Source of the DNA: Bacteroidota bacterium
Lineage (GTDB): Bacteria > Bacteroidota > Bacteroidia > AKYH767-A > JAHEYN01
Length of the DNA: 64,000 nt
Assembly: GCA_947448795.1 (NCBI GenBank)
Contig: CANFOZ010000004.1
Location: 4,086-68,085, forward strand
Direction: 5' to 3'
The position numbers and the translations under genes are program-made. The first letter of the stretch is position 1, and each line of letters begins with the position of its first letter. The notes beneath the pieces are model-generated. The model worked only from the letters and a program-made list of their open reading frames with translations, made no database searches and was not told the DNA's origin. This document shows positions 10,663 to 24,203 of the stretch, one piece after another.

Positions 10663-11802
10663 CTATAAAAACAGGGCTTTGTTTAAAACCACGGCGTCGC
10701 TTTTATTCATAAATTCAAGCGCCGTTTGTCGAGCAGTAGCACGCAGCTGTTCATATTCCTTAGCACTCATTGTTGCGCAAGATTCAATTGCTTCAATAAA
10801 TTGGTGCTGATTTTCAAGAGGAATATCCCAGCCTGCCCCTTGGTTTTTGAGATCCTTCCAGGGCGTACGATCACTAATAATAACGGGGGTGCCGCAATTC
10901 AGACTCTCATAGATGATATGCCCAAAATTCTCACCACGTGTGGGCATGAATAAAAAATGATGCTGACTCAATACGGCGGGAATATCTTGCGGCTCAATAG
11001 CTCCATGGTATTTGACCGTAATATTAGCAGGTAAGGAAGCTATTTCCGCTTGGCATTTAGACCAATACGATTGGTTATAGACAGGACCGTAAAACTCAAA
11101 ATTAACTTTCGCTCGAATAGCTTTCAAAATTGTCAAGGCCCCGAGAAGATTCTTCTCGGGTGCAATACGCGCAATATTAACAAGCCGAAGCCCATCTAAT
11201 GGAGCTGATTGAGCCATGGCAATTAATTGTTCTTTTTTACGAGGCAGATTGGGAGCTATTTGTATTTCGTTATTACTAAAAACAACACGAATATCTTCCC
11301 TTTCGGATGCTGATGAAGCTTGAAACACAACCTTGTTAAAAAGACCAAAAAGACGCGCATTAAGTAAGAAGATGGTCTTTTTAAATCTCTTGATAGCCAA
11401 TGCAGATGGCGCCAACATGCCGCGTGCAGCAAGAATCACCTTTGCTTGCCGACCTCTCAAAAGCCATAGCGGAACGAGTGTAAACCAAAAAGAAAACAGG
11501 CTGTTGAGATAAATAAAGTCGGGGTTAATTTGACTATAAATAGAGCGCAAAGTAGTCACGCGCAATTGATCTTTCGATACATAATAAACGTGAACACCAT
11601 CACCCCTATTTACCCAACAGTTTGGTGTAATTTCCGAATACGGAATAGCGCGTGTGTAATCGGTATCGCGACAGACAATAAAAAAGTCAAATTCACCTGC
11701 CAGATGCTCAACAAGTCCAGCACAAGAAGTAACGGGGCCTCCAGCACGGAATCCAGGCAAGTACCAATCGATAAAAATGAGTATTTTCTTTTTTTCGATC
11801 AT
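10663..11802 (-). CDS. Glycosyltransferase family 4 (GT-B)
   Basis: C-terminal MPTRGENFGHIIYESLNCGTPVI (EX7E-type GT4 motif). The ATG at 11802-11800 overlaps the upstream TGA (ATGA), so it is preferred to the listed start at 11829. Confidence 0.8.
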   Translation of the reverse strand: MIEKKKILIFIDWYLPGFRAGGPVTSCAGLVEHLAGEFDFFIVCRDTDYTRAIPYSEITPNCWVNRGDGVHVYYVSKDQLRVTTLRSIYSQINPDFIYLNSLFSFWFTLVPLWLLRGRQAKVILAARGMLAPSALAIKRFKKTIFLLNARLFGLFNKVVFQASSASEREDIRVVFSNNEIQIAPNLPRKKEQLIAMAQSAPLDGLRLVNIARIAPEKNLLGALTILKAIRAKVNFEFYGPVYNQSYWSKCQAEIASLPANITVKYHGAIEPQDIPAVLSQHHFLFMPTRGENFGHIIYESLNCGTPVIISDRTPWKDLKNQGAGWDIPLENQHQFIEAIESCATMSAKEYEQLRATARQTALEFMNKSDAVVLNKALFL

Positions 11803-12863
11803 AGCAGGTTTGTTATCTGATCGGCCCAATCAGAGGGGTTATATCGGTTAGCGAGTTCGACACTGCTTACCGACATGGCTTTGAAGTCTTCATCGCTCAT
11901 TTTAGTGAAGGCATACAAGTAATCTATAAGCACAGCCTCATCACCTGGAGGAAAAGAAAAACCGTTTATGCCTGCAATTAAAAAGCGCTCGGCAGCACCC
12001 ACTTCATGACTGCAGAGTAATGGAAAACCAGCTGCGGCGAATTCATGAACAACAACTCCCCAAGGCTCAAAATAACTTGGCAAAACCAACACGCTTGTAT
12101 CAGCAATAAGCTGTTTCATTTGTGATGGTTGCACGAAACCTAAATCTTTGATTTTAGGATGCTTGGGAAACGATGCTTGAAGAACACCCGTGCCAGCGCA
12201 CCACAATTCCCAATCGTTGGGATTGTATTCATGTAGTTTGATAAACGCATTCCAAAGTGTTTCAAGCCCTTTTTCCTCCACATATCGCCCAATATAGAGG
12301 AAACGTTTGGGTTTGTTAATAGATTTTCGAGATTTTAGGTCATTATATAACTCAGAAAAATGCGGAATATCACAAGCATAAACACCCGTCAGAATTTTTC
12401 CATTAGCAAAGCCCAATTTGATTGCATACTTTTTTTGACGCTCACCGGCAACCCAGGCATGCGTGAATCCGCTACGCAGCTGTTTGCCTAACAAAACAGC
12501 AAAGTGCTGCCTCCATGAACCTTTCCATGGTGTATCCATGGCAAGCAAAACAGGAATGGTGCTTGTATATGCACGAATTGCCTTTAAATAGCCTTTATCT
12601 ATCCAGCCTGCGCAGTAGATTAGGTCTGGCTGCAAGTTCTGTATGAATGAAAGCAATTGCTTATTATCGAATTGAGAGCGATTATAAAAACGAATCTTCT
12701 CAGGTAAATTAAAATCAAAAGGCGCATCTGGATTTACAGGAAAGTGAATTACATGTACCTCCAAATGCGGCCTGTTTGCCAACTCTAACAAACTCGACAG
12801 CACATAAGAAGCCAACTCAGAGTATAGAAAAAGAACCTTGCGGTTTCTCTTTGTTGAATTCAT
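11799..12863 (-). CDS. Glycosyltransferase family 4 (GT-B)
   Basis: LPSYFEPWGVVVHEFAAAGFPLLCS motif. Same strand as the flanking glycan genes, with overlaps. Confidence 0.8.
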   Translation of the reverse strand: MNSTKRNRKVLFLYSELASYVLSSLLELANRPHLEVHVIHFPVNPDAPFDFNLPEKIRFYNRSQFDNKQLLSFIQNLQPDLIYCAGWIDKGYLKAIRAYTSTIPVLLAMDTPWKGSWRQHFAVLLGKQLRSGFTHAWVAGERQKKYAIKLGFANGKILTGVYACDIPHFSELYNDLKSRKSINKPKRFLYIGRYVEEKGLETLWNAFIKLHEYNPNDWELWCAGTGVLQASFPKHPKIKDLGFVQPSQMKQLIADTSVLVLPSYFEPWGVVVHEFAAAGFPLLCSHEVGAAERFLIAGINGFSFPPGDEAVLIDYLYAFTKMSDEDFKAMSVSSVELANRYNPSDWADQITNLL

Positions 12864-14197
12864 GGCTTGTCATTATAGTTAAGGACATTAGGATAAGAAT
12901 GGTGTATGGATTTAATGATCCAATAAGCCACGATTCAAAAAATGCAGAGAAAAGAATCATAGCTAGAATCGGAAGTGCAATGAACGTATTTTTTGCTGCG
13001 ATCACAAACTTGGAAATGAGAGCATACATAAAGAGTACCAATCCAAATAGGCCTGTACTAAGCCAGATTGAAATAAAGGAGTTGTGGGCCCCACCATCAC
13101 TACCCATTAAATTTAGCATTTGCTGATTGCCTTCGTGATAATAAATATATTCTTCGTGGCCCAAGCCTTTACCAAAGAAAAAATTCAATTGGATTTGCTC
13201 CCATCCAAACTTCCAAGCCACCAAACGGCCTGAGCCAGATTCTAAGGTGTTTTCTCTTAAAAAAGAGGATAATCCCATTTGCTGAATTAATACGTGTGAA
13301 TAGTCAACAACAACTTCATATGTTAAGGCTCCTACTAAAAGAATTATCATACCCAATACCTGTGAAAACTTAAAAAATCGTGAAACAATTAGAAATAAAG
13401 TAATTGAAAAAATGGCGTTTCTAGAACCACTTTCAATGCAGCTATAAGCAATAATCGCATAAATAATCAGGTTCTCTTGGCGAGAAAAAAGCTGAGGGAA
13501 ATACTGTTTTACAACAAGAAAAAAAAACAAAAAAAGTGGTGCAATTTAAGCCTATCGCATTCGGGTTACCCAAAAAGCCATGAAAGCGATTTAATCCAAC
13601 CATCGAGATGCCGGCTAAACGAAAAACAATAGCAACGAGCAGAAACAACGTAATCAAAACAATGAACTGTTTAAATATTGCTGGACCATACTCTTTGAAC
13701 AAGCGCAAGGTGATATTCGGAACGAGGATCACTAAAAGCAAATACGAAATGGTTTTCTGCAAGGCGAATTTCGGCATTTCGCTTTTTCCAATAACAAGAA
13801 AGGCAAACGTTAAAAAGGGAAGAAATACGAAGTAAAATGTGCTACCCTGTCGTAGCTCATTTCGTCCTAAAAAGAAAGCTGCCCCTATGCCAAGTAGATA
13901 ATACGGCTTGATTGGTTTTGCGAAACTGAATTGAGCAAGGTAGCTATCCGAAAAATAGAGCAATAAAAACAAACCAAATAGCATAAAGGCAACCTTGTCT
14001 TTTGAAATAAAGAGCAATAAGGATAAAATAATTGCAAGCTGGGTAAGCGGGGATACAAATCGCCCCAATAACAGCCAAATAATGGCTACAAAAACAAAAT
14101 GTTTATGGGTTCTATAGAAGTCGGCAAACATGATAATCAATAAGCATGAAATCCATAAATAAAGAGATGCTATCTTACATTTCTTTGTGCAGCTCAA
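12817..14197 (-). pseudogene. O-antigen ligase / Wzy-family polymerase-like membrane protein, split by a 1-nt frameshift in a T7-G-T9 tract
   Basis: Two overlapping minus-strand ORFs (13442-14197 and 12817-13530) carry consecutive parts of one polytopic protein. Family motifs are RFHGFLGNPNAIGL, GSGRLVAWKFGWEQI..FFGKGLG and AHNSFISIWLSTGLFG. Removing one T from the T9 run joins ...TTFFVFF to LVVKQYFPQL in frame, giving about 459 aa. Confidence 0.65.
13519..13535 (-). repeat. Homopolymer tract T7-G-T9 (A9-C-A7 on the plus strand) at the frameshift point
   Basis: Read directly: 13519-13527 is A9, 13528 is C, and 13529-13535 is A7. Confidence 0.95.
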
Positions 14198-14286: not shown

Positions 14287-16152
14287 TTATAGATCCTCAA
14301 CAGGCAAAATCGAGGAACTGAAGTCGTTACCGTGCCATTCGGCATTTCCTATCACAAACCAAGGTTGAGCAATTTGGCGATTTAAAAAATCATGTTCAAA
14401 ACCTGTAGGACTATCAATTTTTTTACATAATATTTCAAATTGATAACTGCTGTTTAAATTGTCAATGCGGTGCGTTTTATATAACCAAAACAGGGAGTAT
14501 CGCTTTATTCCTGCTTCCATGGCGCGGTTGTTAATATTTGGGCCGTTCACGCAAAATGTCCAATTTACCCAAAGGAAACTTTTCAGATAATCGCCTGGTA
14601 GGCCTTGCTCGTTAATAATAGGCAACACAGTTCGCTTCCCTTTTTCAATATAATCGACCCGTATAATATGGTTATACTTCTTGAAATGACTATCCATAAA
14701 CACTCCATGGTTGGTGATCCCTAGCATATACGTTGATAGCGATGCCACCGGCTGAAGCGCACTATTAAGCGAGTGAAACCAGCTTAGGCCTTTAAATCTA
14801 TTGCTAATCAATGGCGATTTCAAAGAAGTAATAAGCTGCAAAAGTATAATGACAACAAACAACAGTTTCAGGCTAACGCGATAAAGCCTTGTAATGCTCA
14901 GGTTATTAAACAACATTACCTGCTCATTATTCGATTCTGGCGCACCTAGTCTAATTTCAAAGTCTTTTTCAGTGTTCAAAGCGTTGCCGCTATTTAACGT
15001 CAATTTACCATATAACCACCGTGCTATCTGATAAACTCCAGGCACTTTGAGAATCAAAAAAAACGGATAAAAAATTAAGGAGTACCGAAAAGTCTGTATA
15101 TACACATCGATACCATGGTAAACCTTTCCTTCAAAAACGCCTTGTACATTTTTCTTAAAAGCCTCATTAGGGGTTTTATTTAGTAAGTTTCTATTATCGT
15201 GATTGTCTTTTGAATCGATGAATCGAATTCGACCGAACACATCGACGTATTCCAAAACTATTTTCGTTCGGATACAAAATGGATTTTCTGCGTTGTATAT
15301 AAAAAGAAAGGATGGATGGCTATTAGGTCGCGAACGCCTCTTGCCAATAAATGGAGGCAGTAACAGAACATACATAGCTACAACAAGTTGCGCGAATTGC
15401 GGAATCGGATAGAGTATGTATATCCCAATATGTAGACCAAGTCCAATAATAAAAAAAATCAGCCTGAATCGTTTGTTCCAAAACAGAAATAGAAATAACA
15501 CTTCAAAAACCAATGTCAAATACCCTAGCCCCTTCATAAACCACTCCATATTCAGAATTGAAGAAGCATTAAAATTGACTGCGAACGGCATTGATGCAGG
15601 TAGCCAGACCCCTAAGCCTGACATCCATAAAGGCGATTGAAGTTTATAAAAAATAGAGTCAAAATAAACCAGGCCTACGCCCACAAAAACGATTAGATAG
15701 GAATAAAACTCCGAAACCATTTCATCTGGAATATAGGCTGCCTTTGTTTTCGAATTGTTTATTCTTTTTAACAAATTGTCGATAGATAGTGCGCTTGATA
15801 CAGGAGCAATCATCAACAAAAAATTAACCCCCATATAGCCATGGAAAGCATGGTATTCAAATTGCTTTGCAGCACCTATCATAAGCAAGCTTAAGAGGTA
15901 ATTGATGCATGCAAAAAACCGTGTTTTATAACCCAGTATCAAACATAAGATTGATAGTATCCAAGCATAAAATGCAAAAGGAACCGCAATAACTGACGGC
16001 TCCAGAAAAGGCATCGAATCATACACAAGTTCTTTGAAACGGTACAACCTGATAACTTCAAGCAACAAAACAACGCTATAGAGCATTCTAAAAATGGCTA
16101 GATTTCTAGATGATACTTTTCTTTCAATCAGCCCATTTAAAAAACCATTCAT
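14287..16152 (-). CDS. HTTM (vitamin-K-dependent-carboxylase-like) membrane domain fused to a degenerate DCC/DUF393-like module and a conserved C-terminal domain (paralogue B)
   Basis: N-terminal SSRNLAIFRMLYSVVLLLEVIRLYRF HTTM-type signature plus a polytopic region. The middle module aligns with the DCC motif of the neighbour but reads NAENPFC instead of DKECPLC. It is collinear with the upstream 621-aa paralogue. Confidence 0.7.
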   Translation of the reverse strand: MNGFLNGLIERKVSSRNLAIFRMLYSVVLLLEVIRLYRFKELVYDSMPFLEPSVIAVPFAFYAWILSILCLILGYKTRFFACINYLLSLLMIGAAKQFEYHAFHGYMGVNFLLMIAPVSSALSIDNLLKRINNSKTKAAYIPDEMVSEFYSYLIVFVGVGLVYFDSIFYKLQSPLWMSGLGVWLPASMPFAVNFNASSILNMEWFMKGLGYLTLVFEVLFLFLFWNKRFRLIFFIIGLGLHIGIYILYPIPQFAQLVVAMYVLLLPPFIGKRRSRPNSHPSFLFIYNAENPFCIRTKIVLEYVDVFGRIRFIDSKDNHDNRNLLNKTPNEAFKKNVQGVFEGKVYHGIDVYIQTFRYSLIFYPFFLILKVPGVYQIARWLYGKLTLNSGNALNTEKDFEIRLGAPESNNEQVMLFNNLSITRLYRVSLKLLFVVIILLQLITSLKSPLISNRFKGLSWFHSLNSALQPVASLSTYMLGITNHGVFMDSHFKKYNHIIRVDYIEKGKRTVLPIINEQGLPGDYLKSFLWVNWTFCVNGPNINNRAMEAGIKRYSLFWLYKTHRIDNLNSSYQFEILCKKIDSPTGFEHDFLNRQIAQPWFVIGNAEWHGNDFSSSILPVEDL

Positions 16153-16197
16153 GCTTTATTTTTTTATTGTCTCTAGTGTATTTCGGCTGTACATCAT

Positions 16198-18063
16198 TTA
16201 TTGCTGCTCGACTGGCAGAATAGTAGAAGAAAAATCATCATCCTGCCAATCAGCTGTTCCAATAACAAACCAGGGCTTAGTTATTTGGCGTTTTAAAAAA
16301 TCCTTTTGAAAACCGACAGGGGTGTCAATTTTTTTACAAAGCACCTCGAAGTGATGTGCGCCCACCAATTGCTTAGCTCTCTTCGTTTTATACAACCAGA
16401 AAACGGTATATCGTTTGATTCCTGCTTCGAGCTTCGCGTTACTAACGGTTGGTCCGTTAACTCGAAATGTCCAATTTACCCAATTGAAATTATACAAATA
16501 ATCGCTTGGTAGTCCGCGCTGATCGATAATTGGGAGAGTAATGCGTTTGCCATTTTCAATACAATCGATGCGAATAACGTGGTTGTAATTTTTAAAATGG
16601 CTATCCATAAAAACCCCATGGTTTGTGATTCCTAAGAAATGATGGGACAGATTCGCAAGAGGTTGAAGAAATCGTGTTATTGAACTATAAAAGCCAAATC
16701 TGCTTAATGCCTGACTGGGCAATGGCGATTGCAAAGAGACATTGATTTGCAATAGTAGAATTCCAAAAAAAAGAAACTTCAATGTACCTCGAGTAAAAGC
16801 ATTCAAACTCAGATTCTTAAGAAGCCGGACACGCTTAGTAGATACCTCGGGATGGTTGCCTATTCCAATTTCGCAATTTTCAGCTGTGCAGCGCTCAGTG
16901 CTTCTACCTTTGGCTACTGTCGTATAGAACCACCTTGCGATGTGATAAATACCAGGTATACTTAGCAATAAATAAATCGGAAAAAACAAGATAGATTTCC
17001 GAAAAACCTGTCGATAAACATCAATCCCTTTATAAACCTTTTCATTATAAAGACCATGAACATCTCGCACCAGATTATCAAAAGAAAAAGCTTGCAAGGC
17101 TCGATGATTTGCTTGCTGCGTTTGAACATCAAAAAAGCGAATGCGTCCAAAAACATCTAAATACTCAACTACTATTTTTGTTCGTATGCACAATGGACAT
17201 TCCTTATCGTAAAAAAAGAGGAAGGGTTCTTGTTTAATTAATTTTTTAAAATTCAGCCTAATAGGCGGAAGCATTAGCACATATAATACAATACAAAATT
17301 GAGCGAATTGAGGTATTGGAAAAAAGATGTAAATTCCGATGTGTAAGCAAATACCAACCAGTAAAAGGATTAGCTTAAACCTCCTATTCCAAAACAAAAA
17401 AAGAAAAACCGCCTCAAAAATGATCGTTAAATAGCCAAAACCCTTCATCAACCACTCTTGATTTAGAATTGGCGTAGCATCAAAATTAACAGCAAAGGGC
17501 ATTGAAGCTGGAAGCCAAATACCTAAGCCTGATAACCATAATGGGGATTGTAATTTAAACAATATGGAATCAAAGTAAACCAAGCCAACACCAACAAAAA
17601 CCAATAAAAAGGAATAGAATTCAGAAACCTTTTCCTCTGGTAAAAATTCTTTTTTTAAGGTTGATGTGTTTAAGCGTTTAAGCAAATTGTCAACAGATAA
17701 GGAATCAGAAACCGGAGTAAACATCAGCAGAAAGTTAACACCCATGTAACCATAAAATACATGGTATTCGAACTGCGTTGCCGTACCAATCAACAACAAA
17801 CTCAATAAATAATTCACGACTGAAAAAAAGCGTGTTTTATAACCCAATATCAGACAAAAAAGGGTAATAAACCAAGCGTCTAAGGCATACGCCGTTGACA
17901 TCACGGATGGCACTCGGTATGGAATTGCATCATACACCAAATGCTGAAAACGATACAGCCGAATTGCTTCCAATAACAGAACAAGGCAATACAATATGCG
18001 AAAAACCGCTAAGTTTCTCGATGAGATTTTGTTATCGATGAGCTTGTTAAGAAACCTATTCAT
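16198..18063 (-). CDS. HTTM membrane domain fused to a DCC/DUF393 thiol-disulfide oxidoreductase module and a conserved C-terminal domain (paralogue A)
   Basis: SSRNLAVFRILYCLVLLLEAIRLYRF signature; FFYDKECPLC (DxxCxxC, encoded at 17188-17208) followed by GIDVY...IARWFY as in DUF393; an extra TM; and a C-terminal domain of about 175 aa. It starts 12 nt after the aminotransferase gene. Confidence 0.75.
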   Translation of the reverse strand: MNRFLNKLIDNKISSRNLAVFRILYCLVLLLEAIRLYRFQHLVYDAIPYRVPSVMSTAYALDAWFITLFCLILGYKTRFFSVVNYLLSLLLIGTATQFEYHVFYGYMGVNFLLMFTPVSDSLSVDNLLKRLNTSTLKKEFLPEEKVSEFYSFLLVFVGVGLVYFDSILFKLQSPLWLSGLGIWLPASMPFAVNFDATPILNQEWLMKGFGYLTIIFEAVFLFLFWNRRFKLILLLVGICLHIGIYIFFPIPQFAQFCIVLYVLMLPPIRLNFKKLIKQEPFLFFYDKECPLCIRTKIVVEYLDVFGRIRFFDVQTQQANHRALQAFSFDNLVRDVHGLYNEKVYKGIDVYRQVFRKSILFFPIYLLLSIPGIYHIARWFYTTVAKGRSTERCTAENCEIGIGNHPEVSTKRVRLLKNLSLNAFTRGTLKFLFFGILLLQINVSLQSPLPSQALSRFGFYSSITRFLQPLANLSHHFLGITNHGVFMDSHFKNYNHVIRIDCIENGKRITLPIIDQRGLPSDYLYNFNWVNWTFRVNGPTVSNAKLEAGIKRYTVFWLYKTKRAKQLVGAHHFEVLCKKIDTPVGFQKDFLKRQITKPWFVIGTADWQDDDFSSTILPVEQQ

Positions 18064-18075
18064 TGGTGTTTTAAA

Positions 18076-19200
18076 TCAAATGTCATAAAACGCCAATATA
18101 CGCTTTGTGATTTTAATCACATCGTCGTTGGTAAGCTCATAATACATAGGCAAGCGAATTAAGCGATCTGTAAATGCATCGCTATTGGGCAAGTCGCGCC
18201 CATCGTGTTTGGCTTTATAATACGGGCTTTTGTGTAGGGATAAATAATGGAATACAGCATGCATGTCTTGCTCTTTTAAATACGCTATCAGTTTTGTTCG
18301 CTGCTCTAGCGACTCGCAAACTAAGTAAAACATATGGGCATTGTTAGAAGCATAAATTGGCAGCATAGGTAGTCCCACTCCTTTGTCAATTAAGCAGGTT
18401 AATTGCTCAAAATACAGCTCCCAAATTTGCAAGCGTCGCTTTTGAATGCGATCTATATTTTCAAGCTGAGCAAATAGAAATGCTGCAATAATATCGGATG
18501 GAAGAAAGGAAGAACCAATATCCACCCAGCCGTATTTATCAACCTCTCCTCTAAAAAATGCCGAACGATTAGTCCCCTTTTCACGAATAATCTCGGCCCT
18601 ATTAATGAGCCGTTCATCATTCACTATCAACATCCCTCCTTCACCGGAAATAATATTTTTTGTTTCATGAAATGAAAACGCGCCAAGGTGACCAATGCTG
18701 CCAAGTGCTCGTCCTTTGTAGAAACTATCAATAGCTTGGGCTGCATCCTCCACCACAAAAAGCGAGTGTTTATCTGCAATGTCCATCACTCTATCCATAT
18801 CGCAAGCAACCCCAGCATAATGAACAACAACGATTGCTTTCGTTCGATGGTTAATTAATGGCTCAATTGCATCCACATCCATATTCGGATGCTCAGTTGA
18901 TGAATCAACAAATACAATTTTTGCTCCACGCAACACAAAGGCATTAACGGTTGAAACAAAAGTAAAAGAGGGGGCAATAACTTCGTCGCCTTCCTTGATA
19001 TCTAGTAAAATCGCTGCCATCTCCAAGGCATCGGTACAAGAGGTAGTTAAAAGCGCTTTTTTAAAGCCATATCGATCCTGAAAAAACTGATGGCATTTTT
19101 TTGTGAAGATTCCATCGCCTGATATCTTCAGATTGCTAACCGCTTCCTTAATGTAATCCGTTTCTTTTCCCGAAAGATAGGGTTTGTTAAATGTAATCAT
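18076..19200 (-). CDS. wecE: dTDP-4-amino-4,6-dideoxygalactose transaminase family (WecE/RffA, DegT/DnrJ/EryC1 class)
   Basis: LLTTSCTDALEMAAILLDIKEGDEVIAPSFTFVSTVNAFVLRGAKIVFVD closely follows the E. coli WecE core as I recall it. HETKNI holds the PLP lysine. Confidence 0.85.
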   Translation of the reverse strand: MITFNKPYLSGKETDYIKEAVSNLKISGDGIFTKKCHQFFQDRYGFKKALLTTSCTDALEMAAILLDIKEGDEVIAPSFTFVSTVNAFVLRGAKIVFVDSSTEHPNMDVDAIEPLINHRTKAIVVVHYAGVACDMDRVMDIADKHSLFVVEDAAQAIDSFYKGRALGSIGHLGAFSFHETKNIISGEGGMLIVNDERLINRAEIIREKGTNRSAFFRGEVDKYGWVDIGSSFLPSDIIAAFLFAQLENIDRIQKRRLQIWELYFEQLTCLIDKGVGLPMLPIYASNNAHMFYLVCESLEQRTKLIAYLKEQDMHAVFHYLSLHKSPYYKAKHDGRDLPNSDAFTDRLIRLPMYYELTNDDVIKITKRILAFYDI

Positions 19201-19211
19201 ATACTAAAGTA

Positions 19212-19544
19212 TCAAGTCCATAAAATACAAAGGCCAAACCATGTATAGCCAGCCAGTTTTAATGAGCGAATTGGTATTGCACTTGTGACCTCCTGCTTGT
19301 TAATCAACAAATCGGTGATGACCCAGCCAAAGAGAATAGAAAAGAAAAAAACACTTTTTTGACCAAATATGGAGACATAACCTCTCAAAAATGGAATATC
19401 ATTACACGATTCGTTTCCTTCCCTTTTTTTATAAAATTCAACAGGATGCACATAAACTAGCGTTGCAGCTCTTGCGCGAAACAGGGATGGGCTTTTGAAA
19501 TTAAATTTAGTTTTCAACTTCTCTATATTTAGCAGGGCTTCCAA
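19212..19544 (-). CDS. Hypothetical small protein with two C-terminal hydrophobic segments (uncertain)
   Basis: This is the only ORF filling the 306-nt gap between the acetyltransferase and aminotransferase genes on the operon strand. It overlaps the upstream gene by 38 nt and has no recognisable motif. Confidence 0.3.
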   Translation of the reverse strand: MEALLNIEKLKTKFNFKSPSLFRARAATLVYVHPVEFYKKREGNESCNDIPFLRGYVSIFGQKSVFFFSILFGWVITDLLINKQEVTSAIPIRSLKLAGYTWFGLCILWT

Positions 19545-20151
19545 AGTACAAACCGGATTTTGTCAATGTTTTTACAACTAGTGTTCCTGCACCTGTGCGC
19601 ACATAATCGGCAAGCTCGATGTTGTCTATAAGAATGGAGCCTATTCCAATTACACATCCAATCCCAATCTTGGTAAAACCTGCAATTTTAACAGCAGGTG
19701 ATACAAAGGAATGCGCTCCTACTTTTGAATCATGGGCAATCACAACCCCGGTGTTCAATAACACATTCTCTGCTAAAACAACATTGCGATCTAAAACACA
19801 ACCAGGCAAAACAAAGCAGCCAGCGCTAATATGAACCGAAGGGTCTATACTAGCAGAGGGATGAATAACGGTTGCGAATGGAATTCCCTTACTAAAATCA
19901 GTAAATACAGATTCTCGAAAAGACATGTGATTATAACCAATGCCAACCATTAATTCATCAAAAACGCCTGCTGCATAATCAGCACGAAGCTGTGCGATTT
20001 TTCCTAGAATCGGAAAACCAGCACGTAGCTCTGATGAATCAACATAGTCATCATAAAAACCGACGACACGAAAGCTAGGCAATAATGATGCATGATGAGC
20101 AATCAACTGGCCGAGGTCTGATGATCCGATTATCGCTAAGCGCTTATTCAT
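19507..20151 (-). CDS. NeuD/PglD-type sugar acetyltransferase (left-handed beta-helix)
   Basis: N-terminal Rossmann-like MNKRLAIIGSSDLG and C-terminal hexapeptide repeats (GAHSFVSPAVKIAGFTKIGIGCVIGIGSIL). Confidence 0.85.
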   Translation of the reverse strand: MNKRLAIIGSSDLGQLIAHHASLLPSFRVVGFYDDYVDSSELRAGFPILGKIAQLRADYAAGVFDELMVGIGYNHMSFRESVFTDFSKGIPFATVIHPSASIDPSVHISAGCFVLPGCVLDRNVVLAENVLLNTGVVIAHDSKVGAHSFVSPAVKIAGFTKIGIGCVIGIGSILIDNIELADYVRTGAGTLVVKTLTKSGLYFGSPAKYREVEN

Positions 20152-21079
20152 AAAAATTAGTCATTTCTTTTATTGAAAACAAAGGTCTTGCTTTTACCTC
20201 CTTATAAATCTTGCCAATATAAATGGCAGCCAATCCAATAAAAAACAACAGTATTCCAGTTGCACCAATAATGGTAATAATTATGGAGGGCCATCCCAAT
20301 TGAAATTGAATAAAGAAAAGTCGTAAAACAACAATTGTTATAAGCGCAAAAAAAGCAGAGAACATTAAATAAAAACCCAAGCGCACAGCCATCTTTAGTG
20401 GAATTTCTGAAAAGTCAAAAATGGCATCGAAGGCCAACTTCATTTTGCGATTGAAGTTAAACTTGCTTACTCCGGCAAAACGTTCACGCTGTTTTATCTC
20501 TAATGTTGTTTGCTTAAGTCCTATATGCATAAACATACCTTCAATAAAACGACTCTGCTCGTTGTATTTGAGAAAAGACGCAGCAAATCGCCGATTAAAA
20601 ATACGCATGACTGCGATGCCTTTTGGTATGTTCAAACCCGTGAACTTGTCTAATACCCACCAGAAGAGACCTGATAATACTACATTAATAAAAGAGTCTT
20701 TCTTCTCCTGTCTTTTTCCAAAAACCAAATCAAAACCTTTTTCAATCTCCTCAATAAAGCGCGGAATCTCATCTGGTGGATCTTGTAAATCAGGATCCAT
20801 ATATAACAAATAATCTCCTTTTGCATAGGTAATTCCAGCTGTAACCGCCAACTGCTTCCCGTGATTATAAGACAGCTCTATAAGTTTTATATGCGTGTTT
20901 GTTAGTGCAGCTTTTTTAATCAACCCAACCGTATTGTCTCGGCTTCCATCATCCACAAAAATGTACTCGTGTTGATAACGCTCTTTTAGCAGACTAAAAA
21001 CAGCATCCACTTCTTCGATGAAACGCAGTATACATGCTTCTTCAAAATAGACGGGCACAACCAAGGATACCAACTTCAT
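20144..21079 (-). CDS. Family 2 glycosyltransferase, polyprenyl-phosphate sugar transferase type (ArnC/GtrB/DPM1-like)
   Basis: VVPVYFEE, DDGSRDNT and DPDLQDPP (DXD) motifs, plus two C-terminal TM helices (LGFYLMFSAFFALITIVVL, IIITIIGATGILLFFIGLAAIYI). Confidence 0.85.
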   Translation of the reverse strand: MKLVSLVVPVYFEEACILRFIEEVDAVFSLLKERYQHEYIFVDDGSRDNTVGLIKKAALTNTHIKLIELSYNHGKQLAVTAGITYAKGDYLLYMDPDLQDPPDEIPRFIEEIEKGFDLVFGKRQEKKDSFINVVLSGLFWWVLDKFTGLNIPKGIAVMRIFNRRFAASFLKYNEQSRFIEGMFMHIGLKQTTLEIKQRERFAGVSKFNFNRKMKLAFDAIFDFSEIPLKMAVRLGFYLMFSAFFALITIVVLRLFFIQFQLGWPSIIITIIGATGILLFFIGLAAIYIGKIYKEVKARPLFSIKEMTNFYE

Positions 21080-21087
21080 AATTCTGT

Positions 21088-21741
21088 TTATTTTGCGTTT
21101 AATGTATGTAACAAACTTGGCACCTCATGGAATGAAATGATTCGATTTTTGAAGGCAGGATAGAATAAATCCCTATCCATAAGATACGCATGAATTCCAA
21201 GACGCTGAGCTGGCTCAATATCAAGCTTTAACGAATCTCCAATATACAAAACCTCCTCGCCTTGCAAGCCAAGTTTGTTTAATGCATAGTGATAGAATTC
21301 TACATTGGGCTTTCTCAGCTGCTCTTCCTCCGAACTTATAACATACGCTAATTCAAAAGCGAGCAAGCCTTTTAAAAGCGGTGCCAATCCTGTGTTAAAA
21401 TTGGAAAGCACAGAAATTGGTAATTGGTTTTTTTCAAGTCCTTCAACATCCTCGAATACTTTCCAAGGGAGATAGCTACAAGCCTTGAATAGATCTTCTA
21501 AGAGCTCCGCATGCGGAATTATTCCAACAGCAAACAGCAACTCAGTATTGAATAATCGATAAAAATCAGCATCCGTACGATCAGGAAACAGCGTGGATTC
21601 AGATAGCATTTTATGCGCGTGTTTTAACTTTCCGGCATCAACAGAATAACCATGATGCACAATAACCCCATGCATACGCGACCACAAATCGGGTTTGTGA
21701 ATTAGTGTATTGGCGGCGTCAATTAAAAGTGCGCGGATCAT
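21088..21741 (-). CDS. HAD-superfamily hydrolase (subfamily IA-like)
   Basis: LLIDAANTLI (motif I variant), SNFN, and YIGDSLKLDIEPAQRLG (motif IV). Confidence 0.75.
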   Translation of the reverse strand: MIRALLIDAANTLIHKPDLWSRMHGVIVHHGYSVDAGKLKHAHKMLSESTLFPDRTDADFYRLFNTELLFAVGIIPHAELLEDLFKACSYLPWKVFEDVEGLEKNQLPISVLSNFNTGLAPLLKGLLAFELAYVISSEEEQLRKPNVEFYHYALNKLGLQGEEVLYIGDSLKLDIEPAQRLGIHAYLMDRDLFYPAFKNRIISFHEVPSLLHTLNAK

Positions 21742-21743
21742 GA

Positions 21744-22703
21744 TTAAAAGATATAGGATTGAGTATCATCGCCATGCTCTGGATAGATTATGTCCATTAG
21801 AATACGAATAGCTCGGCCTGGCTTTACATTCGGTTTATCGGGTTCTTGTCCGTAAAGATACTCCTGCAAGGTGTAATAAACATCTTTAAAGCCAAACTGC
21901 GAGCGAATGGAATTCGTACCGGATATTCTGCAATTTACCTCAAAAGGAATAATACGGCCATCTTCAGTCACAATGGATTGCAGATTAGCACCTCCCCTAA
22001 TTTCAATGGTTTTAAGCATCGATTCTAAAATAACTTGCACCTGCTTGTCATATTTGCTGATTACTTCGCAATCCATAGTTGTTCCATGCTCCAAGTTTCG
22101 ACTCAACGTTATGTGACCATGTAAAACACCGTTTTTATTTACATAAAAAGCAGATGTAATCTCTTGACCTCTGTGAAACTCTTGTATTACATAGGTATCG
22201 TCTGAAAATGCAGCAGCTTCTGATGGATTAATAACTAATCCTCGAGATCCTCTGCCCTCGCGAGGCTTAGCTATGCATTCTTTAAACTGCCCTTTATAGG
22301 CAGAAGGCAAAATCGAATCAGCAAAAGGTATATTGAACGCACGATGATGCTCAAAACTCTTGTATTTATCAAGATAAATACTAGCCGCATTTGCACCTGA
22401 AACAGCGATAGAACAAGAAATAGATTCCTTTGCTAATGCTAGATGATAGACCTCATAATCCGTCGATGGTATAATTAAGTCAGCCTTTACTTCCTTTACT
22501 ATTGAACTCATTTGTTCTATATAGCCTGGAGCATAAGCTGGCAAAACCGTATACACCTTATCGCAGAAATGATTCCCTGCAGAAAAGGAAATCGTATTTG
22601 TACCAATAAGCTGTATGGGCAAGCCCGAGGCTTTAATATTTCGAAGAATCCCCTGGCCTACATTGCCCCCAATTCCTGTAACTAATACTGTCCTTTTATC
22701 CAT
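21744..22703 (-). CDS. ATP-grasp domain protein (carboxylate-amine ligase type)
   Basis: KPREGRGSRGL and FEVNCRISGT (E-x-N) motifs, with an N-terminal Rossmann-like VLVTGIGGNVGQG. Confidence 0.75.
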   Translation of the reverse strand: MDKRTVLVTGIGGNVGQGILRNIKASGLPIQLIGTNTISFSAGNHFCDKVYTVLPAYAPGYIEQMSSIVKEVKADLIIPSTDYEVYHLALAKESISCSIAVSGANAASIYLDKYKSFEHHRAFNIPFADSILPSAYKGQFKECIAKPREGRGSRGLVINPSEAAAFSDDTYVIQEFHRGQEITSAFYVNKNGVLHGHITLSRNLEHGTTMDCEVISKYDKQVQVILESMLKTIEIRGGANLQSIVTEDGRIIPFEVNCRISGTNSIRSQFGFKDVYYTLQEYLYGQEPDKPNVKPGRAIRILMDIIYPEHGDDTQSYIF

Positions 22704-23536
22704 TGAATAAGTTCTAATAGGCTTTCAACTACATTTTTCTCACTACGCCAATGCAAACGACTTCGCGTTTCGGCTCCATCAAAACTAGAGGAAAAAACCG
22801 GGTCGCTTCCTTGGTGCTCGATGCGAACATCGGATATCATTTTCTGAAGCTCTCGGGCTATTTCAATATTGGAGTATGATGTGCCAGAAACCGCTAAAAA
22901 AACACCGTTCTCGACAGACCTTGCAGCAGCATAAAAACAAGCTGCTACATCGTCAACATGAATGTAATCTTGCTTTCTAGAGCCATCCCCATAGATCACA
23001 ATCTCTTTCTTTTGAAGCGCATTTTGAATAATCAACGGCAAAAACGTGTTGCGTTTCATACCGGGCCCAAACATAGAAGAGATGCGCAAAATAGCATACG
23101 AATCACAAGCTGAAACAATCTTTTCGGCCCATAGTTTACTTAGTCCATAGGCGGAAACTTCATTTTGGACTGCATGTTCATTAACGGTTTGTGTCATAAC
23201 GCCATAAACAGAAACACTAGAGGCATGCACGATGCGTGCAGACGGAAATTGCTTTATAACATTTTCCAATAAGCGAACATTTGTTGCAAAAAGTGCTTCT
23301 TGATTTATATTCTGATTTGTTGGGATATAAGCACTGACAAAACAAACAACGGTATAAACATCGTCAAACTCATGCAGCTCTTCAACGGGCTTGCTTAGGA
23401 CAAAGCTTGGTATTCGATCTTTCTGAATGTGGTGTATACCATGCACATCGAAATGCGTCTTCAGCTTTTCAGCTATAGACACGCCCAAAATACTATTTAT
23501 TCCAACGATTAATGCCTTTTCTCGAGCATTCGACAT
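22682..23536 (-). CDS. NAD-dependent epimerase/dehydratase family (extended SDR)
   Basis: VGINSILG nucleotide-binding turn and a SAYGLSK (YxxxK) catalytic motif. Confidence 0.8.
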   Translation of the reverse strand: MSNAREKALIVGINSILGVSIAEKLKTHFDVHGIHHIQKDRIPSFVLSKPVEELHEFDDVYTVVCFVSAYIPTNQNINQEALFATNVRLLENVIKQFPSARIVHASSVSVYGVMTQTVNEHAVQNEVSAYGLSKLWAEKIVSACDSYAILRISSMFGPGMKRNTFLPLIIQNALQKKEIVIYGDGSRKQDYIHVDDVAACFYAAARSVENGVFLAVSGTSYSNIEIARELQKMISDVRIEHQGSDPVFSSSFDGAETRSRLHWRSEKNVVESLLELIQWIKGQY

Positions 23537-23628: not shown

Positions 23629-24198
23629 TTATTTACTTTGATCAAGTGCTAACTGTACCTGCTCTTTTAAATGGTCAAACTCTTCCGGTTTGTATAATCG
23701 TGTTAAAAACAAAACCTTTCCAGATCGGCCTATTAAAACATTTCGCGTAACACCGCTTTTCTTATCGGCAAATAAGCCAAAAACAGCCGCTCCCGGATCC
23801 AAGCCAAGTGGATAGGTGATTTTAGTGGAATTGCGCAGCTCTTCAAGCTTTGCAAGAGGTTCATCTCTATCAACGCCTATGAATAGCAAACCTGCATCCT
23901 TGTGTTTTTGCCAAATATCGGCTTCAAGAAATGGCATTTCTTGCCTGCAAACACTGCACCAACTAGCGGTGAACTGCAAAAGTATCACCTCGCCTTTATG
24001 TTCACTAAGTTTAAACCGCTTTCCTGAATCTAAAACAAGCTCAAAATCAGGTGCTGTATCACCCACCTGAATCATAAAGCCTAAAGAATCAGCAGCGTGT
24101 TTTATTGGCGCAATGGACTGCGCTTGAATAACACACGCAATAAGCAGACCCTGTACTGTAAAAAACAAGGATCGCAGGCTTAATGATCGATTGCACAT
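23629..24198 (-). CDS. TlpA/ResA-family periplasmic thiol-disulfide oxidoreductase
   Basis: Signal peptide and a thioredoxin-fold WCSVC motif (encoded at 23947-23958). 189 aa. Confidence 0.8.
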   Translation of the reverse strand: MCNRSLSLRSLFFTVQGLLIACVIQAQSIAPIKHAADSLGFMIQVGDTAPDFELVLDSGKRFKLSEHKGEVILLQFTASWCSVCRQEMPFLEADIWQKHKDAGLLFIGVDRDEPLAKLEELRNSTKITYPLGLDPGAAVFGLFADKKSGVTRNVLIGRSGKVLFLTRLYKPEEFDHLKEQVQLALDQSK

Positions 24199-24203
24199 AA
24201 TTA

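What the first reader, a model, noticed from the sequence alone, without database searches (positions are those of the whole stretch)
14287..18063. Tandem pair of 621-aa HTTM (vitamin-K-carboxylase-like) + DCC thiol-oxidoreductase + unknown-domain fusion proteins inside a glycan operon
Two same-strand ORFs of identical length lie 45 nt apart. By eye, 38 of the first 60 residues are identical, and similarity continues to the C-terminus, so this looks like an old tandem duplication.

Each protein reads as a three-part fusion:
- Residues about 10-270 form a polytopic membrane domain opening with SSRNLA[IV]FR[MI]LY..LLLE.IRLYRF. I recognise this as the HTTM / vitamin-K-dependent gamma-carboxylase signature (compare vertebrate VKGC ...SLAVFRFLFG...).
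- Residues about 280-385 form a DUF393/DCC-type module (FFYDKECPLC ... GIDVY ... IARWFY).
- One more TM helix is followed by a conserved C-terminal domain of about 175 aa.

In animals the HTTM enzyme depends on a separate CxxC membrane enzyme (VKOR) to re-reduce its quinone cofactor. Here an HTTM module is covalently joined to a CxxC module in a menaquinone-using phylum. The pair starts 12 nt downstream of a WecE-type aminotransferase within a surface-glycan operon.

To my knowledge no bacterial HTTM protein has a defined substrate, and I know of no described role for one in LPS or glycan loci. This is the best candidate here for an undescribed envelope modification or redox system.
Basis: partly seen in the sequence, partly recalled or inferred. 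Interest (0 to 1): 0.85.

Follow-up and report, generated by a model that had tools for sequence, protein, structure and literature searches.

The report
GGCX-like membrane enzymes in glycan locus
Two neighbouring genes encode bacterial relatives of the human vitamin-K-dependent carboxylase, each with a thioredoxin-like module inserted on the cytoplasmic side, and across Bacteroidota this gene type is almost always wired to genes that build an N-acylated 4-amino-6-deoxy sugar, which suggests an undescribed quinone-dependent modification of a surface glycan.

Summary
Two 621-aa ORFs lie on the minus strand (16198-18063 and 14287-16152), 45 nt apart and 59% identical. The pair starts 12 nt after a WecE-type aminotransferase gene.

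The reading is largely right but needs correcting.
- **HTTM domain.** Pfam HTTM does not hit either window protein directly. It does hit 22 of 40 homologues. The AlphaFold model's top 16 PDB matches are all human GGCX. GGCX residues K218, W223, D263, F299 and H160 have counterparts in this family.
- **DCC module.** It is an optional insert in the predicted cytoplasmic TM8-TM9 loop. About half the family lacks it. Copy B has lost its cysteines.
- **C-terminal domain.** The predicted periplasmic domain matches nothing known.
- **Earlier work.** A bacterial HTTM enzyme with a defined substrate exists (MloH). A 2026 preprint already describes HTTM-DCC plus DUF5819 as GGCX-like.

What appears to be new: in 56 of 70 species-representative loci the gene sits beside a WecE-like aminotransferase, a VioB/PglD-like acetyltransferase and an ATP-grasp or WbqC gene.

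Best guess: a menaquinol- and O2-dependent modification, possibly carboxylation, of an N-acyl amino sugar at the periplasmic face. The chemistry and substrate are inferred, not shown.

The parts
16198..18063 (-). Copy A, 621 aa: GGCX-like HTTM membrane domain, redox-intact DCC insert, TM9, C-terminal domain
   Evidence: ORF. AF2 model pLDDT 87.6. Top 16 Foldseek PDB hits are all human GGCX. Pfam DCC1-like at 4e-17.
14287..16152 (-). Copy B, 621 aa: same architecture, but the DCC insert has lost the CxxC (NPFC) and the C-x4-C pair
   Evidence: dN/dS 0.16 against its orthologue. All HTTM residues invariant in the family are kept.
17254..18063 (-). Copy A residues 1-270: HTTM domain with eight predicted helices
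   Evidence: Family profile aligns collinearly to GGCX 51-317 at 12.1 bits; 0 of 500 shuffles reach this. 22 of 40 family members hit Pfam PF05090.
17554..17556 (-). Codon for K170 of copy A, aligned to the GGCX catalytic base K218
   Evidence: Invariant in 40 of 40 family members. Alignment. The role of K218 is taken from PMC12647623.
16900..17223 (-). Copy A residues 281-388: DCC1-like thioredoxin-fold insert in the TM8-TM9 loop, predicted cytoplasmic
   Evidence: Pfam PF04134 63.9 bits. Flanking linkers carry net charge +3.3 and +2.5. DCC-less relatives join TM8 almost directly to TM9.
17188..17199 (-). Copy A C289-P-L-C292 redox motif; a second pair, C392/C397, lies at 16873-16890
   Evidence: C289 present in 34 of 40, C292 in 36, C392 in 32, C397 in 33. 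Both pairs are missing from copy B.
16735..16806 (-). Copy A residues 420-443: ninth TM helix, positional equivalent of GGCX TM9
   Evidence: AF2 helix 420-443. Hydropathy and charge profile. GGCX has nine TM helices.
16201..16734 (-). Copy A residues 444-621: conserved alpha/beta C-terminal domain, predicted periplasmic, no known relative
   Evidence: Invariant G478, H482, H489, P511, G517, W598, G602. No Pfam hit. No PDB fold match, best E 0.32. No HMM signal to the GGCX lumenal part.
18076..19200 (-). WecE-type dTDP-4-amino-4,6-dideoxyhexose transaminase; core partner of the module
   Evidence: NCBIfam NF008687 570 bits (cutoff 375) and TIGR02379 535 bits (cutoff 435). 60-73% identical copies lie next to the HTTM gene in 59 of 70 loci.
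19507..20151 (-). NeuD/PglB/VioB-type sugar N-acetyltransferase; core partner
   Evidence: Pfam PglD_N plus Hexapep. TIGR03570 155 bits, cutoff 160.8. Present in 62 of 70 loci.
21744..22703 (-). PylC-like ATP-grasp ligase; core partner, replaced elsewhere by an ATP-grasp_4 or WbqC gene
   Evidence: One of the three ligase-type genes is present in 64 of 70 loci.
21088..21741 (-). HAD-family hydrolase; travels with the PylC-like ATP-grasp
   Evidence: Present in 27 of 70 loci.
22682..23536 (-). Short NAD-dependent epimerase/reductase; travels with the ATP-grasp and HAD genes
20144..21079 (-). GT2 resembling ArnC/PgfS polyprenyl-phosphate glycosyltransferases; accessory
   Evidence: Present in 26 of 70 loci.
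19212..19544 (-). Remnant of an Acyl_transf_3 gene, about 810 nt deleted relative to the close relative L001
12817..14197 (-). Wzy_C (O-antigen polymerase/ligase family) gene, split by a +1 frameshift in a T-run near 13527
10663..12863 (-). Two GT4 glycosyltransferase genes closing the locus

Best explanation
A and B are bacterial GGCX-type (HTTM) membrane enzymes.

**Architecture**
- The core is a nine-helix membrane domain. It keeps counterparts of the GGCX residues that deprotonate vitamin K hydroquinone and hold CO2.
- The core is followed by a periplasmic domain that probably recognises the substrate.
- A DCC thioredoxin-like module is inserted in the cytoplasmic loop between helices 8 and 9.

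**Proposed mechanism (inferred)**
- The enzyme uses menaquinol and O2 at the periplasmic membrane face to generate a strong base.
- That base deprotonates, and probably carboxylates, a substituent of the glycan made by the surrounding genes.
- The most likely target is the N-acyl or N-aminoacyl group on a 4-amino-4,6-dideoxyhexose. That sugar is built by the WecE-like aminotransferase, the ATP-grasp or WbqC gene (I take these for amide-forming ligases) and the VioB/PglD-like acetyltransferase.
- The modification would happen after the unit is flipped across the membrane.
- The DCC module, with its CPLC and C-x4-C pairs, would feed cytoplasmic reducing power to the quinone or quinone epoxide. 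It is an accessory, not a necessity.
- In this genome a duplication gave a redox-competent copy (A) and a redox-dead copy (B). B either uses A or another reductase, or modifies a second site.

**How sure each step is**
- Shown: homology, conserved residues, gene linkage.
- Inferred: topology, cofactor.
- Speculative: substrate, reaction.

Approximate confidence by sub-claim:

| Sub-claim | Confidence |
|---|---|
| GGCX-like enzyme | 0.9 |
| Function tied to the amino-sugar module | 0.8 |
| Reaction is carboxylation of a glycan substituent | 0.25 |

The overall confidence of 0.5 is for the composite statement: a quinol-dependent GGCX-type enzyme that modifies this glycan or its lipid-linked unit at the periplasmic face.
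For: **Fold**
- The AF2 model has pLDDT 87.6.
- Its top 16 PDB matches are all human GGCX, with E from 2.5e-5 to 3.5e-2 and about 300 columns at roughly 5 A rmsd. The next hits have E above 0.4.

**Sequence**
- Pfam HTTM hits 22 of 40 family members.
- The N-terminal family profile aligns collinearly to GGCX 51-317 at 12.1 bits. None of 500 shuffles reach this; the best shuffle scores 6.2.

**Catalytic residues** (mapping; GGCX roles from PMC12647623)

| This family | GGCX | Conservation in 40 members |
|---|---|---|
| K170 | K218 | 40 |
| W176 | W223 | 40 |
| F253 | F299 | 40 |
| H241 | H287 | 40 |
| E217 | D263 | 36 E, 4 Q |
| H101 | H160 | 35 |

**Topology**
- GGCX has nine TM helices with a lumenal active site.
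- Loop charges across the family alternate as expected for an N-in protein with the DCC module inside and the C-domain outside.
- DCC-less relatives consist of HTTM, TM9 and the C-domain only.

**Gene linkage**
- Of 70 GTDB species-representative loci with at least 8 kb of flank, 56 carry a same-strand WecE-like transaminase and PglD-like acetyltransferase within 8 kb.
- All 56 also carry an ATP-grasp or WbqC gene.
- The linkage holds with rearranged gene order and in Planctomycetota.

**Precedent**
- MloH is a bacterial HTTM carboxylase that acts on a non-protein intermediate (PMC12186529; 10.64898/2026.08.19.745780).
- Amide-linked amino acids and varied N-acyl groups on Qui4N are well known in O-antigens (PMC7685785, PMC3210612).

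**Distribution**
- By my own knowledge of these taxa, the lineages found are almost all aerobic (Flavobacteriia, Sphingobacteriia, Chitinophagia, Cytophagia, Planctomycetota, methanotrophs). The one exception is a MAG binned as Akkermansia (L030). That fits an O2-dependent reaction.
Against: - No experiment bears on cofactor, substrate or product.
- Pfam HTTM does not reach E<=1 on the window proteins themselves. A family profile finds no GGCX sequence in the PDB sequence search.
- The C-terminal domain shows no similarity to the GGCX lumenal clamps or to anything else. A shared mode of substrate recognition is therefore not shown.
- H101 (equivalent to H160) is Gly in 5 of 40 members.
- The gammaproteobacterial clade of the family (29-32% identity) is not in glycan loci in the three places examined. 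The glycan link is clade-specific.
- Gene linkage shows a shared pathway, not that the glycan is the direct substrate.
- A cytoplasmic DCC module lies on the opposite membrane face from the predicted quinone site. How it would serve that site is unclear.
Confidence: 0.5

Rival explanations
1. Protein-directed redox or maturation factor. Like SdpB (with SdpA) for the SdpC toxin, or LMF1 for lipases, the HTTM-DCC protein would handle disulfides or maturation of an exported protein. Candidates include a glycan-assembly enzyme or a glycosylated surface protein. The glycan itself would not be modified.
For: - Weak but near full-length match to the NCBIfam SdpB family (E 0.002, profile positions 76-274 of 276).
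- A thiol-disulfide module is fused in most members.
- The roles of SdpB and LMF1 in protein maturation are my own background knowledge, not tested here.
Against: - The SdpB score is 17.9 bits against a cutoff of 178.
- GGCX counterparts for quinol deprotonation and CO2 holding are invariant, including in cysteine-free members.
- The DCC module is predicted cytoplasmic, so it cannot oxidise exported proteins.
- About half the family lacks the DCC module.
- The tight partners are sugar-nucleotide enzymes, not a candidate substrate protein.
Confidence: 0.12
2. Quinol-driven base catalysis without carboxylation. The enzyme would use the vitamin-K-derived strong base only to abstract a proton, for example to epimerise an aminoacyl alpha-carbon or a sugar carbon on the exported unit. 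Alternatively it would act only as a quinol epoxidase or oxygenase.
For: - The same structural and residue evidence as the main explanation.
- From my own knowledge, a Leptospira GGCX orthologue was reported to have epoxidase but no carboxylase activity. This was not checked here.
- D-configured amide-linked amino acids occur in O-antigens (PMC7685785).
Against: - The counterpart of F299, which stacks on CO2 in GGCX, is invariant in 40 of 40 members (PMC12647623).
- MloH, the only characterised bacterial member, is a carboxylase (PMC12186529).
Confidence: 0.15
3. Membrane transferase. The polytopic protein with its periplasmic domain would transfer a lipid-linked sugar, made by the ArnC-like GT2, or an acyl group onto the glycan in the periplasm. 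This would be functionally like ArnT/GtrC or AT3-SGNH enzymes.
For: - An ArnC/PgfS-like GT2 lies in the window locus, and no GT-C enzyme was seen there.
- An Acyl_transf_3 gene often neighbours the HTTM gene.
Against: - There are no Pfam hits to GT-C, AT3 or SGNH families.
- The fold matches only GGCX.
- The GT2 is present in only 26 of 70 loci and the AT3 in 15 of 70, so neither is a core partner.
- The conserved residues are those of quinol chemistry.
Confidence: 0.06
4. Quinone-linked thiol oxidoreductase for envelope redox balance. The HTTM domain would be only a quinone-binding anchor of the DoxX-clan type. The DCC CxxC would be the real catalytic centre, passing electrons between cytoplasmic thiols and the menaquinone pool. 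Co-location with glycan genes would be incidental.
For: - The DCC module passes Pfam thresholds.
- Two conserved cysteine pairs are present in most members.
- JGI labels some homologues DoxX/SURF4 family.
Against: - About half of the family has no DCC module.
- Copy B and L004 copy 1 have lost the cysteines yet stay under purifying selection or keep every HTTM invariant residue.
- The linkage to the WecE/PglD/ligase trio in 56 of 70 loci is far beyond chance.
Confidence: 0.07

Closest known systems
[quoted passage not shown]
   Same: - It is the only significant structural match.
- The HTTM sequence alignment is collinear.
- Counterparts of K218, W223, D263, F299, H160 and H287 are conserved.
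- Both have nine membrane helices followed by an extracytoplasmic domain.
   Different: - About 16% identity over the HTTM part.
- No detectable similarity to the lumenal clamp domains.
- A thioredoxin-like DCC domain sits in the loop that is short in GGCX.
- The genomic partners are sugar-nucleotide enzymes, not Gla-protein substrates.
MloH, the vitamin-K-dependent carboxylase orthologue of malonomycin biosynthesis (Streptomyces; Law et al. 2018, cited in PMC12186529 and PMC12647623)
   Same: - It is a bacterial HTTM enzyme fused to an extracytoplasmic-type domain.
- It acts on a small, non-ribosomal substrate: alpha-carboxylation of an aspartyl unit.
- It shows that bacterial HTTM enzymes can be true carboxylases embedded in biosynthetic gene clusters.
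   Different: - MloH belongs to a PKS-NRPS cluster, not a glycan locus.
- No DCC insert is reported for it.
HTTM-DCC protein plus adjacent DUF5819 protein of Firmicutes (Melghirimyces thermohalophilus; preprint 10.64898/2026.08.19.745780)
   Same: - The order of parts is the same: HTTM, DCC1-like, then one TM helix plus an extracytoplasmic domain of about 160-180 aa.
- The preprint's AF3 complex resembles whole GGCX, with conserved Lys, Trp and Phe residues near the modelled menaquinol.
   Different: - Here all three parts form one polypeptide.
- The C-terminal domain gives no Pfam DUF5819 hit in 40 full-length and 23 domain-only scans.
- No glycan context is mentioned in the passages of the preprint that I read.
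SdpB (Bacillus subtilis) and LMF1, HTTM-related maturation factors
   Same: Polytopic HTTM-type membrane domain; weak profile match to the SdpB family.
   Different: - The score is far below the family cutoff (17.9 against 178 bits).
- The gene partners differ.
- No Pfam SdpA-type match to the C-terminal domain.
- No toxin gene was seen among the Pfam-annotated neighbours.
VKOR and VKOR-thioredoxin fusions (quinone/epoxide reduction by CxxC)
   Same: A CxxC thioredoxin-fold module is physically coupled to a quinone-using membrane enzyme.
   Different: - The DCC fold is unrelated to VKOR.
- Its cysteines are predicted on the cytoplasmic side, whereas VKOR's face the lumen or periplasm (the VKOR side is my own knowledge).
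- The module is optional in this family.

Membership tests
HTTM / GGCX-like (Pfam PF05090) | Pfam PF05090 profile match | tested here: inconclusive
   No hit at E<=1 on A or B. 22 of 40 full-length homologues at 29-59% identity hit at E<=0.01, best 2.3e-9.
HTTM / GGCX-like (Pfam PF05090) | GGCX-type membrane fold | tested here: met
   The top 16 Foldseek PDB hits are all GGCX, probability 1.0, E down to 2.5e-5. The next hits have E above 0.4.
HTTM / GGCX-like (Pfam PF05090) | Catalytic base Lys (K218) with stacking Trp (W223), adjacent acidic residue (D263) and CO2-stacking Phe (F299) | tested here: met
   K170, W176 and F253 are invariant in 40 of 40. E217 is Glu in 36 and Gln in 4. The mapping comes from a collinear profile alignment that beats all 500 shuffles.
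HTTM / GGCX-like (Pfam PF05090) | Lumenal/periplasmic clamp domains homologous to those of GGCX | tested here: not met
   The C-terminal profile against GGCX 331-625 is no better than shuffles. The domain model has no PDB match, best E 0.32.
HTTM / GGCX-like (Pfam PF05090) | Vitamin K hydroquinone- and O2-dependent epoxidase/carboxylase activity | not testable with these tools
   Needs biochemistry.
DCC1-like thiol-disulfide oxidoreductase (Pfam PF04134) | Profile match above the gathering score | tested here: met
   A scores 63.9 bits and B 30.1 bits against a cutoff of 27.8. 37 of 40 homologues hit.
DCC1-like thiol-disulfide oxidoreductase (Pfam PF04134) | DxxCxxC redox motif | tested here: met
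   Met in A (D-K-E-C-P-L-C). Not met in B (N-A-E-N-P-F-C). Also lost in L004 copy 1 and in P0091, P0095, P0101 and P0105.
HTTM-DCC + DUF5819 system (2026 preprint) | Pfam DUF5819 match in the third component | tested here: not met
   No DUF5819 hit in A or B, in 40 homologues, or in 23 isolated C-terminal domains at E<=10.
HTTM-DCC + DUF5819 system (2026 preprint) | One TM helix plus an extracytoplasmic domain of about 160-180 aa immediately after the DCC module | tested here: met
   TM 420-443 followed by a domain at 444-621. This is positional only; homology is not shown.
VKOR-like quinone recycling partner | Redox cysteines on the same membrane face as the quinone head-group site | tested here: not met
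   From the charge distribution across 40 sequences and from GGCX topology, the DCC module is cytoplasmic and the K170 site periplasmic. This is a prediction, not an experiment.
SdpB family (NCBIfam TIGR04033) | Score above the curated cutoff | tested here: not met
   17.9 bits against a cutoff of 178.4.
   No such hit for A, B or any homologue.

The most novel reading that the evidence does not exclude
This subfamily is a menaquinone-dependent carboxylase whose substrate is a glycan. It would add CO2 to the N-acyl or N-aminoacyl substituent of a 4-amino-4,6-dideoxyhexose on the exported repeat unit. Examples would be acetyl to malonyl, or Glu/Asp/Gly to Gla-like or aminomalonyl groups. The product would be a calcium-binding surface polysaccharide. 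That would be the first vitamin-K-dependent modification of a carbohydrate polymer, and a cellular role for GGCX-type enzymes in free-living aerobic bacteria.
Probability: 0.2. Interest if true: 0.85.

Novelty: new variant of a known kind. Interest (0 to 1): 0.62.

Why it matters
GGCX-type enzymes are known from animal protein carboxylation and from a single bacterial antibiotic pathway. What the hundreds of other bacterial HTTM proteins do is open.

This survey ties one clade to a specific four-gene amino-sugar module in 56 of 70 species. The question becomes testable in culturable Chryseobacterium, Flavobacterium, Pedobacter and Chitinophaga strains: compare the repeat-unit mass and NMR spectrum of wild type and deletion mutants.

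If the product is a carboxylated glycan substituent, three things would follow.
- A new chemical class of surface-glycan modification.
- A new use of menaquinone outside respiration.
- A bacterial model for GGCX chemistry.

The optional cytoplasmic DCC insert also offers a natural experiment on how the quinone cofactor is recycled without VKOR.

Tried and rejected
- **Direct Pfam and NCBIfam scans of A and B.** These gave only DCC1-like and a sub-threshold SdpB match.
- **PDB sequence searches.** Neither the single protein nor the 40-sequence profile found GGCX. GGCX similarity appeared only by fold and by a filter-free profile-to-sequence alignment with a shuffle control.
- **A by-eye alignment of the motif FLGITNHGVFMDSHF to the GGCX LL9 loop (M486 to M401).** HMMER did not support it: 243 of 500 shuffles scored as well. 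I dropped it.
- **The C-terminal domain.**
  - Its isolated model has no PDB neighbour.
  - There is no Pfam hit.
  - A profile search of the big protein collection returned only fragments of the same family, none labelled DUF5819.
  - Homology to DUF5819 or to GGCX clamps therefore stays open.
- **First attempt to scan genomes with the 40-sequence alignment.** It failed for lack of a conserved stretch. A 12-sequence alignment worked.
- **Literature searches.**
  - HTTM with glycosyltransferase, and gamma-glutamyl carboxylase with O-antigen, each found nothing.
  - One broad search was badly posed and uninformative.
  - A search on DUF393/YuxK found no functional study.
- **Heterodimer prediction for A plus B.** Not possible with the single-chain predictor.
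- **Upstream ResA-like redoxin (23629-24198) as a partner.** Rejected. It is shared only with the 94%-identical relative.

Full report
**1. The observation**

Two minus-strand ORFs of 621 aa occupy 16198-18063 (copy A, upstream) and 14287-16152 (copy B). They are 45 nt apart, and A starts 12 nt after the preceding gene. BLASTP gives 59% identity over the full length with two gaps. Identity by region is 68% in the membrane domain, 48% in the DCC module and 61% in the C-terminal domain.

Both copies are under purifying selection. dN/dS against the orthologues in a close relative is 0.15 for A and 0.16 for B. This is therefore an old, maintained duplication and not a decaying copy.

**2. The domains**

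*DCC module.* Pfam finds only the DCC1-like domain directly. A scores 4e-17 at residues 284-388. B scores 1e-6, just above the gathering score.

*HTTM domain.* Pfam HTTM does not hit either window protein, and NCBIfam gives only a far sub-threshold SdpB match. The HTTM assignment is nevertheless sound, for four reasons.
- 22 of 40 full-length homologues hit PF05090.
- An AlphaFold2 model of A (pLDDT 87.6, pTM 0.87) has human GGCX as its top 16 PDB matches and nothing else of significance.
- I recovered the real GGCX sequence from PDB hits. A profile of the family's first 275 residues aligns collinearly to GGCX 51-317 at 12.1 bits. None of 500 shuffles exceed 6.2 bits.
- That alignment places family-invariant residues on the residues the 2025 cryo-EM work identifies as catalytic (PMC12647623).

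| This family | GGCX | Role in GGCX | Conservation |
|---|---|---|---|
| K170 | K218 | General base for hydroquinone deprotonation | invariant |
| W176 | W223 | Stacks on the base | invariant |
| E217 | D263 | Adjacent acidic residue | 36 of 40 (4 Gln) |
| F253 | F299 | CO2 stacking | invariant |
| H101 | H160 | Binds the substrate carboxyl | 35 of 40 |

Copy B keeps all of these.

*The C-terminal 200 residues.* These comprise one more TM helix (420-443) and a well-predicted alpha/beta domain with invariant His, Gly, Pro and Trp positions. The domain matches no Pfam family and no PDB structure. It shows no similarity to the GGCX lumenal region.

**3. Architecture and topology**

GGCX has nine TM helices. 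The ninth leads into the lumenal domain. Here the DCC module lies between helix 8 and the ninth helix.

Roughly half of the family's representatives are 470-550 aa proteins. They have the HTTM domain, the ninth helix and the C-terminal domain, but no DCC module at all. The DCC module is therefore an optional insert in a loop of a complete GGCX-like enzyme.

Loop charges averaged over 40 sequences alternate as expected for an N-in protein:

| Region | Net charge | Predicted side |
|---|---|---|
| Loop 4-5 | +2.7 | inside |
| Linker before DCC | +3.3 | inside |
| Loop 1-2 | negative | outside |
| Loop 3-4 | negative | outside |
| Cap after K170 | negative | outside |

Together with the GGCX topology, this puts the DCC module in the cytoplasm, and the K170 site and the C-terminal domain in the periplasm. 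This is a prediction.

Most members carry two cysteine pairs: CPLC in the DCC fold and a C-x4-C pair just after it. Copy B has lost three of these four cysteines. The only other tandem pair found (L004/L008) also has one intact copy and one copy with no cysteines, in the opposite gene order. Cross-identities of 39-49% suggest the two duplications were independent.

**4. Genomic context**

The window locus reads, all on the minus strand: epimerase, PylC-like ATP-grasp, HAD hydrolase, ArnC-like GT2, PglD/VioB-like acetyltransferase, a remnant ORF, aminotransferase, A, B, Wzy, GT4, GT4. The aminotransferase passes the NCBIfam cutoffs for dTDP-4-amino-4,6-dideoxygalactose transaminase and for WecE.

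A scan of one genome per species returned 76 loci. Nearly all are Bacteroidota, including Chryseobacterium, Flavobacterium, Pedobacter, Sphingobacterium, Chitinophaga and Maribacter. Some are Planctomycetota.

Of the 70 loci with at least 8 kb of flank:
- 56 have a same-strand WecE-like transaminase (60-73% identical, more conserved than the HTTM protein itself) and a PglD-like acetyltransferase within 8 kb.
- All 56 also have a candidate ligase gene. Across the 70 loci the counts are 30 PylC-like ATP-grasp, 22 ATP-grasp_4 and 13 WbqC.

Gene order varies, and the linkage also holds in Rhodopirellula. RmlA, a WecF-like GT56, the GT2 and an Acyl_transf_3 gene are frequent but not constant. DCC-less forms sit in the same context (L064, L070, L080).

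The gammaproteobacterial clade, at 29-32% identity, is not in glycan loci in the three places checked.

For this clade the linkage is strongly conserved.

**5. Mechanism**

*Shown.* This is a GGCX-type enzyme with counterparts of the GGCX quinol and CO2 residues. It is genetically bound to a module that makes an N-acylated 4-amino-4,6-dideoxyhexose.

*Inferred.*
- Menaquinol and O2 are the cofactors. By my own knowledge the lineages found are almost all aerobic, the exception being one MAG binned as Akkermansia (L030).
- The active site faces the periplasm.
- The C-terminal domain selects the substrate.

*Speculative.* The target is the acyl or aminoacyl group on the amino sugar after flipping, and the reaction is carboxylation. 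Two lines of background make this plausible.
- O-antigens commonly carry amide-linked amino acids and diverse N-acyl groups on Qui4N (PMC7685785, PMC3210612).
- MloH shows that a bacterial HTTM enzyme can carboxylate a small non-protein substrate (PMC12186529).

The DCC module would be a cytoplasmic redox accessory. Its position and dispensability argue against a strict VKOR-like role.

Rivals are listed separately: a protein maturation factor, a base-only epimerase or epoxidase, a membrane transferase, and a stand-alone quinone-thiol oxidoreductase.

**6. What is known and what is new**

Public databases already name these proteins as DCC1-like thiol-disulfide oxidoreductase family proteins. 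A 2026 preprint models a Firmicute HTTM-DCC protein with its DUF5819 neighbour as a GGCX-like complex.

The statement that no bacterial HTTM protein has a defined substrate is incorrect, because of MloH.

I found no paper linking HTTM or GGCX-type proteins to glycan loci. What looks new:
- the single-chain three-part form;
- the insert interpretation of the DCC module;
- the redox-dead paralogues;
- above all, the conserved amino-sugar module.

I class this as a new variant of a known kind, with moderate to high interest because it makes the function of bacterial GGCX homologues directly testable.

**7. Side observations**

- Relative to a 94%-identical metagenomic relative, the window lacks about 810 nt of an Acyl_transf_3 gene. 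At that junction, identity falls from 98.8% to 93.3%.
- The Wzy gene is split by one extra T in a T-run.
- Copy B is three times more diverged at synonymous sites than copy A.

Noticed in passing
window 19207-19544 (compare L001 7709-8857): About 810 nt of an Acyl_transf_3 gene that is intact in the 94%-identical relative (and in L003 and L005) is missing here. The 110-aa ORF keeps only the first ~52 codons. At the same junction, identity to the relative drops from 98.8% (27252-19388) to 93.3% (19206-7000), which suggests a recombination breakpoint inside the glycan locus.
   Followed up: partly
window 12817-14197, frameshift near 13527: The Wzy_C (O-antigen polymerase/ligase family) gene is split into two overlapping ORFs by one extra base in a run of T's, relative to the intact 388-aa gene of the relative. 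This could be phase variation, a pseudogene or a sequencing error.
   Followed up: partly
window 14287-16152 versus 16198-18063: Synonymous divergence from the orthologue in the close relative is 0.60 for copy B, but 0.20 for copy A and 0.14 for the flanking aminotransferase and GT4 genes. Copy B has a different history from its neighbours, or it mutates faster.
   Followed up: no
L004 8109-9980 and 10001-11872 (same place as L008): A second tandem pair occurs in a Bacteroidota MAG. The upstream copy has no cysteines at all and the downstream copy is intact, which is the opposite order to the window. Cross-identities suggest an independent duplication with convergent loss of the redox cysteines.
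   Followed up: partly
proteins P0090-P0119 and loci L064, L070, L080: DCC-less forms of the family (470-550 aa: HTTM, ninth helix, C-terminal domain) are about as common as DCC-bearing forms. They lie next to the same aminotransferase and acetyltransferase genes.
   Followed up: partly
L007, L084, L085: The gammaproteobacterial clade (Nitrosacidococcus, methanotroph-type; 29-32% identity) has the same three-part architecture but is not in glycan loci. Its partners and substrate are likely different.
   Followed up: no
window 20144-21079: The GT2 resembles ArnC/PgfS polyprenyl-phosphate glycosyltransferases (below the curated cutoffs). That hints that the modified sugar is carried on undecaprenyl phosphate to the periplasm. 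No GT-C transferase was seen in the locus.
   Followed up: no
window 23629-25790: A ResA-like periplasmic thiol-disulfide oxidoreductase and a protein with a type IX secretion C-terminal sorting domain lie just upstream of the glycan genes. They are shared only with the closest relative, not with other loci.
   Followed up: partly
L054 11761-12441, L006 11947-12690 and 11 other loci: A WbqC-family gene of unknown function takes the place of the ATP-grasp gene between the HTTM gene and the acetyltransferase. WbqC may therefore be a functional substitute for the ATP-grasp gene at this position.
   Followed up: no
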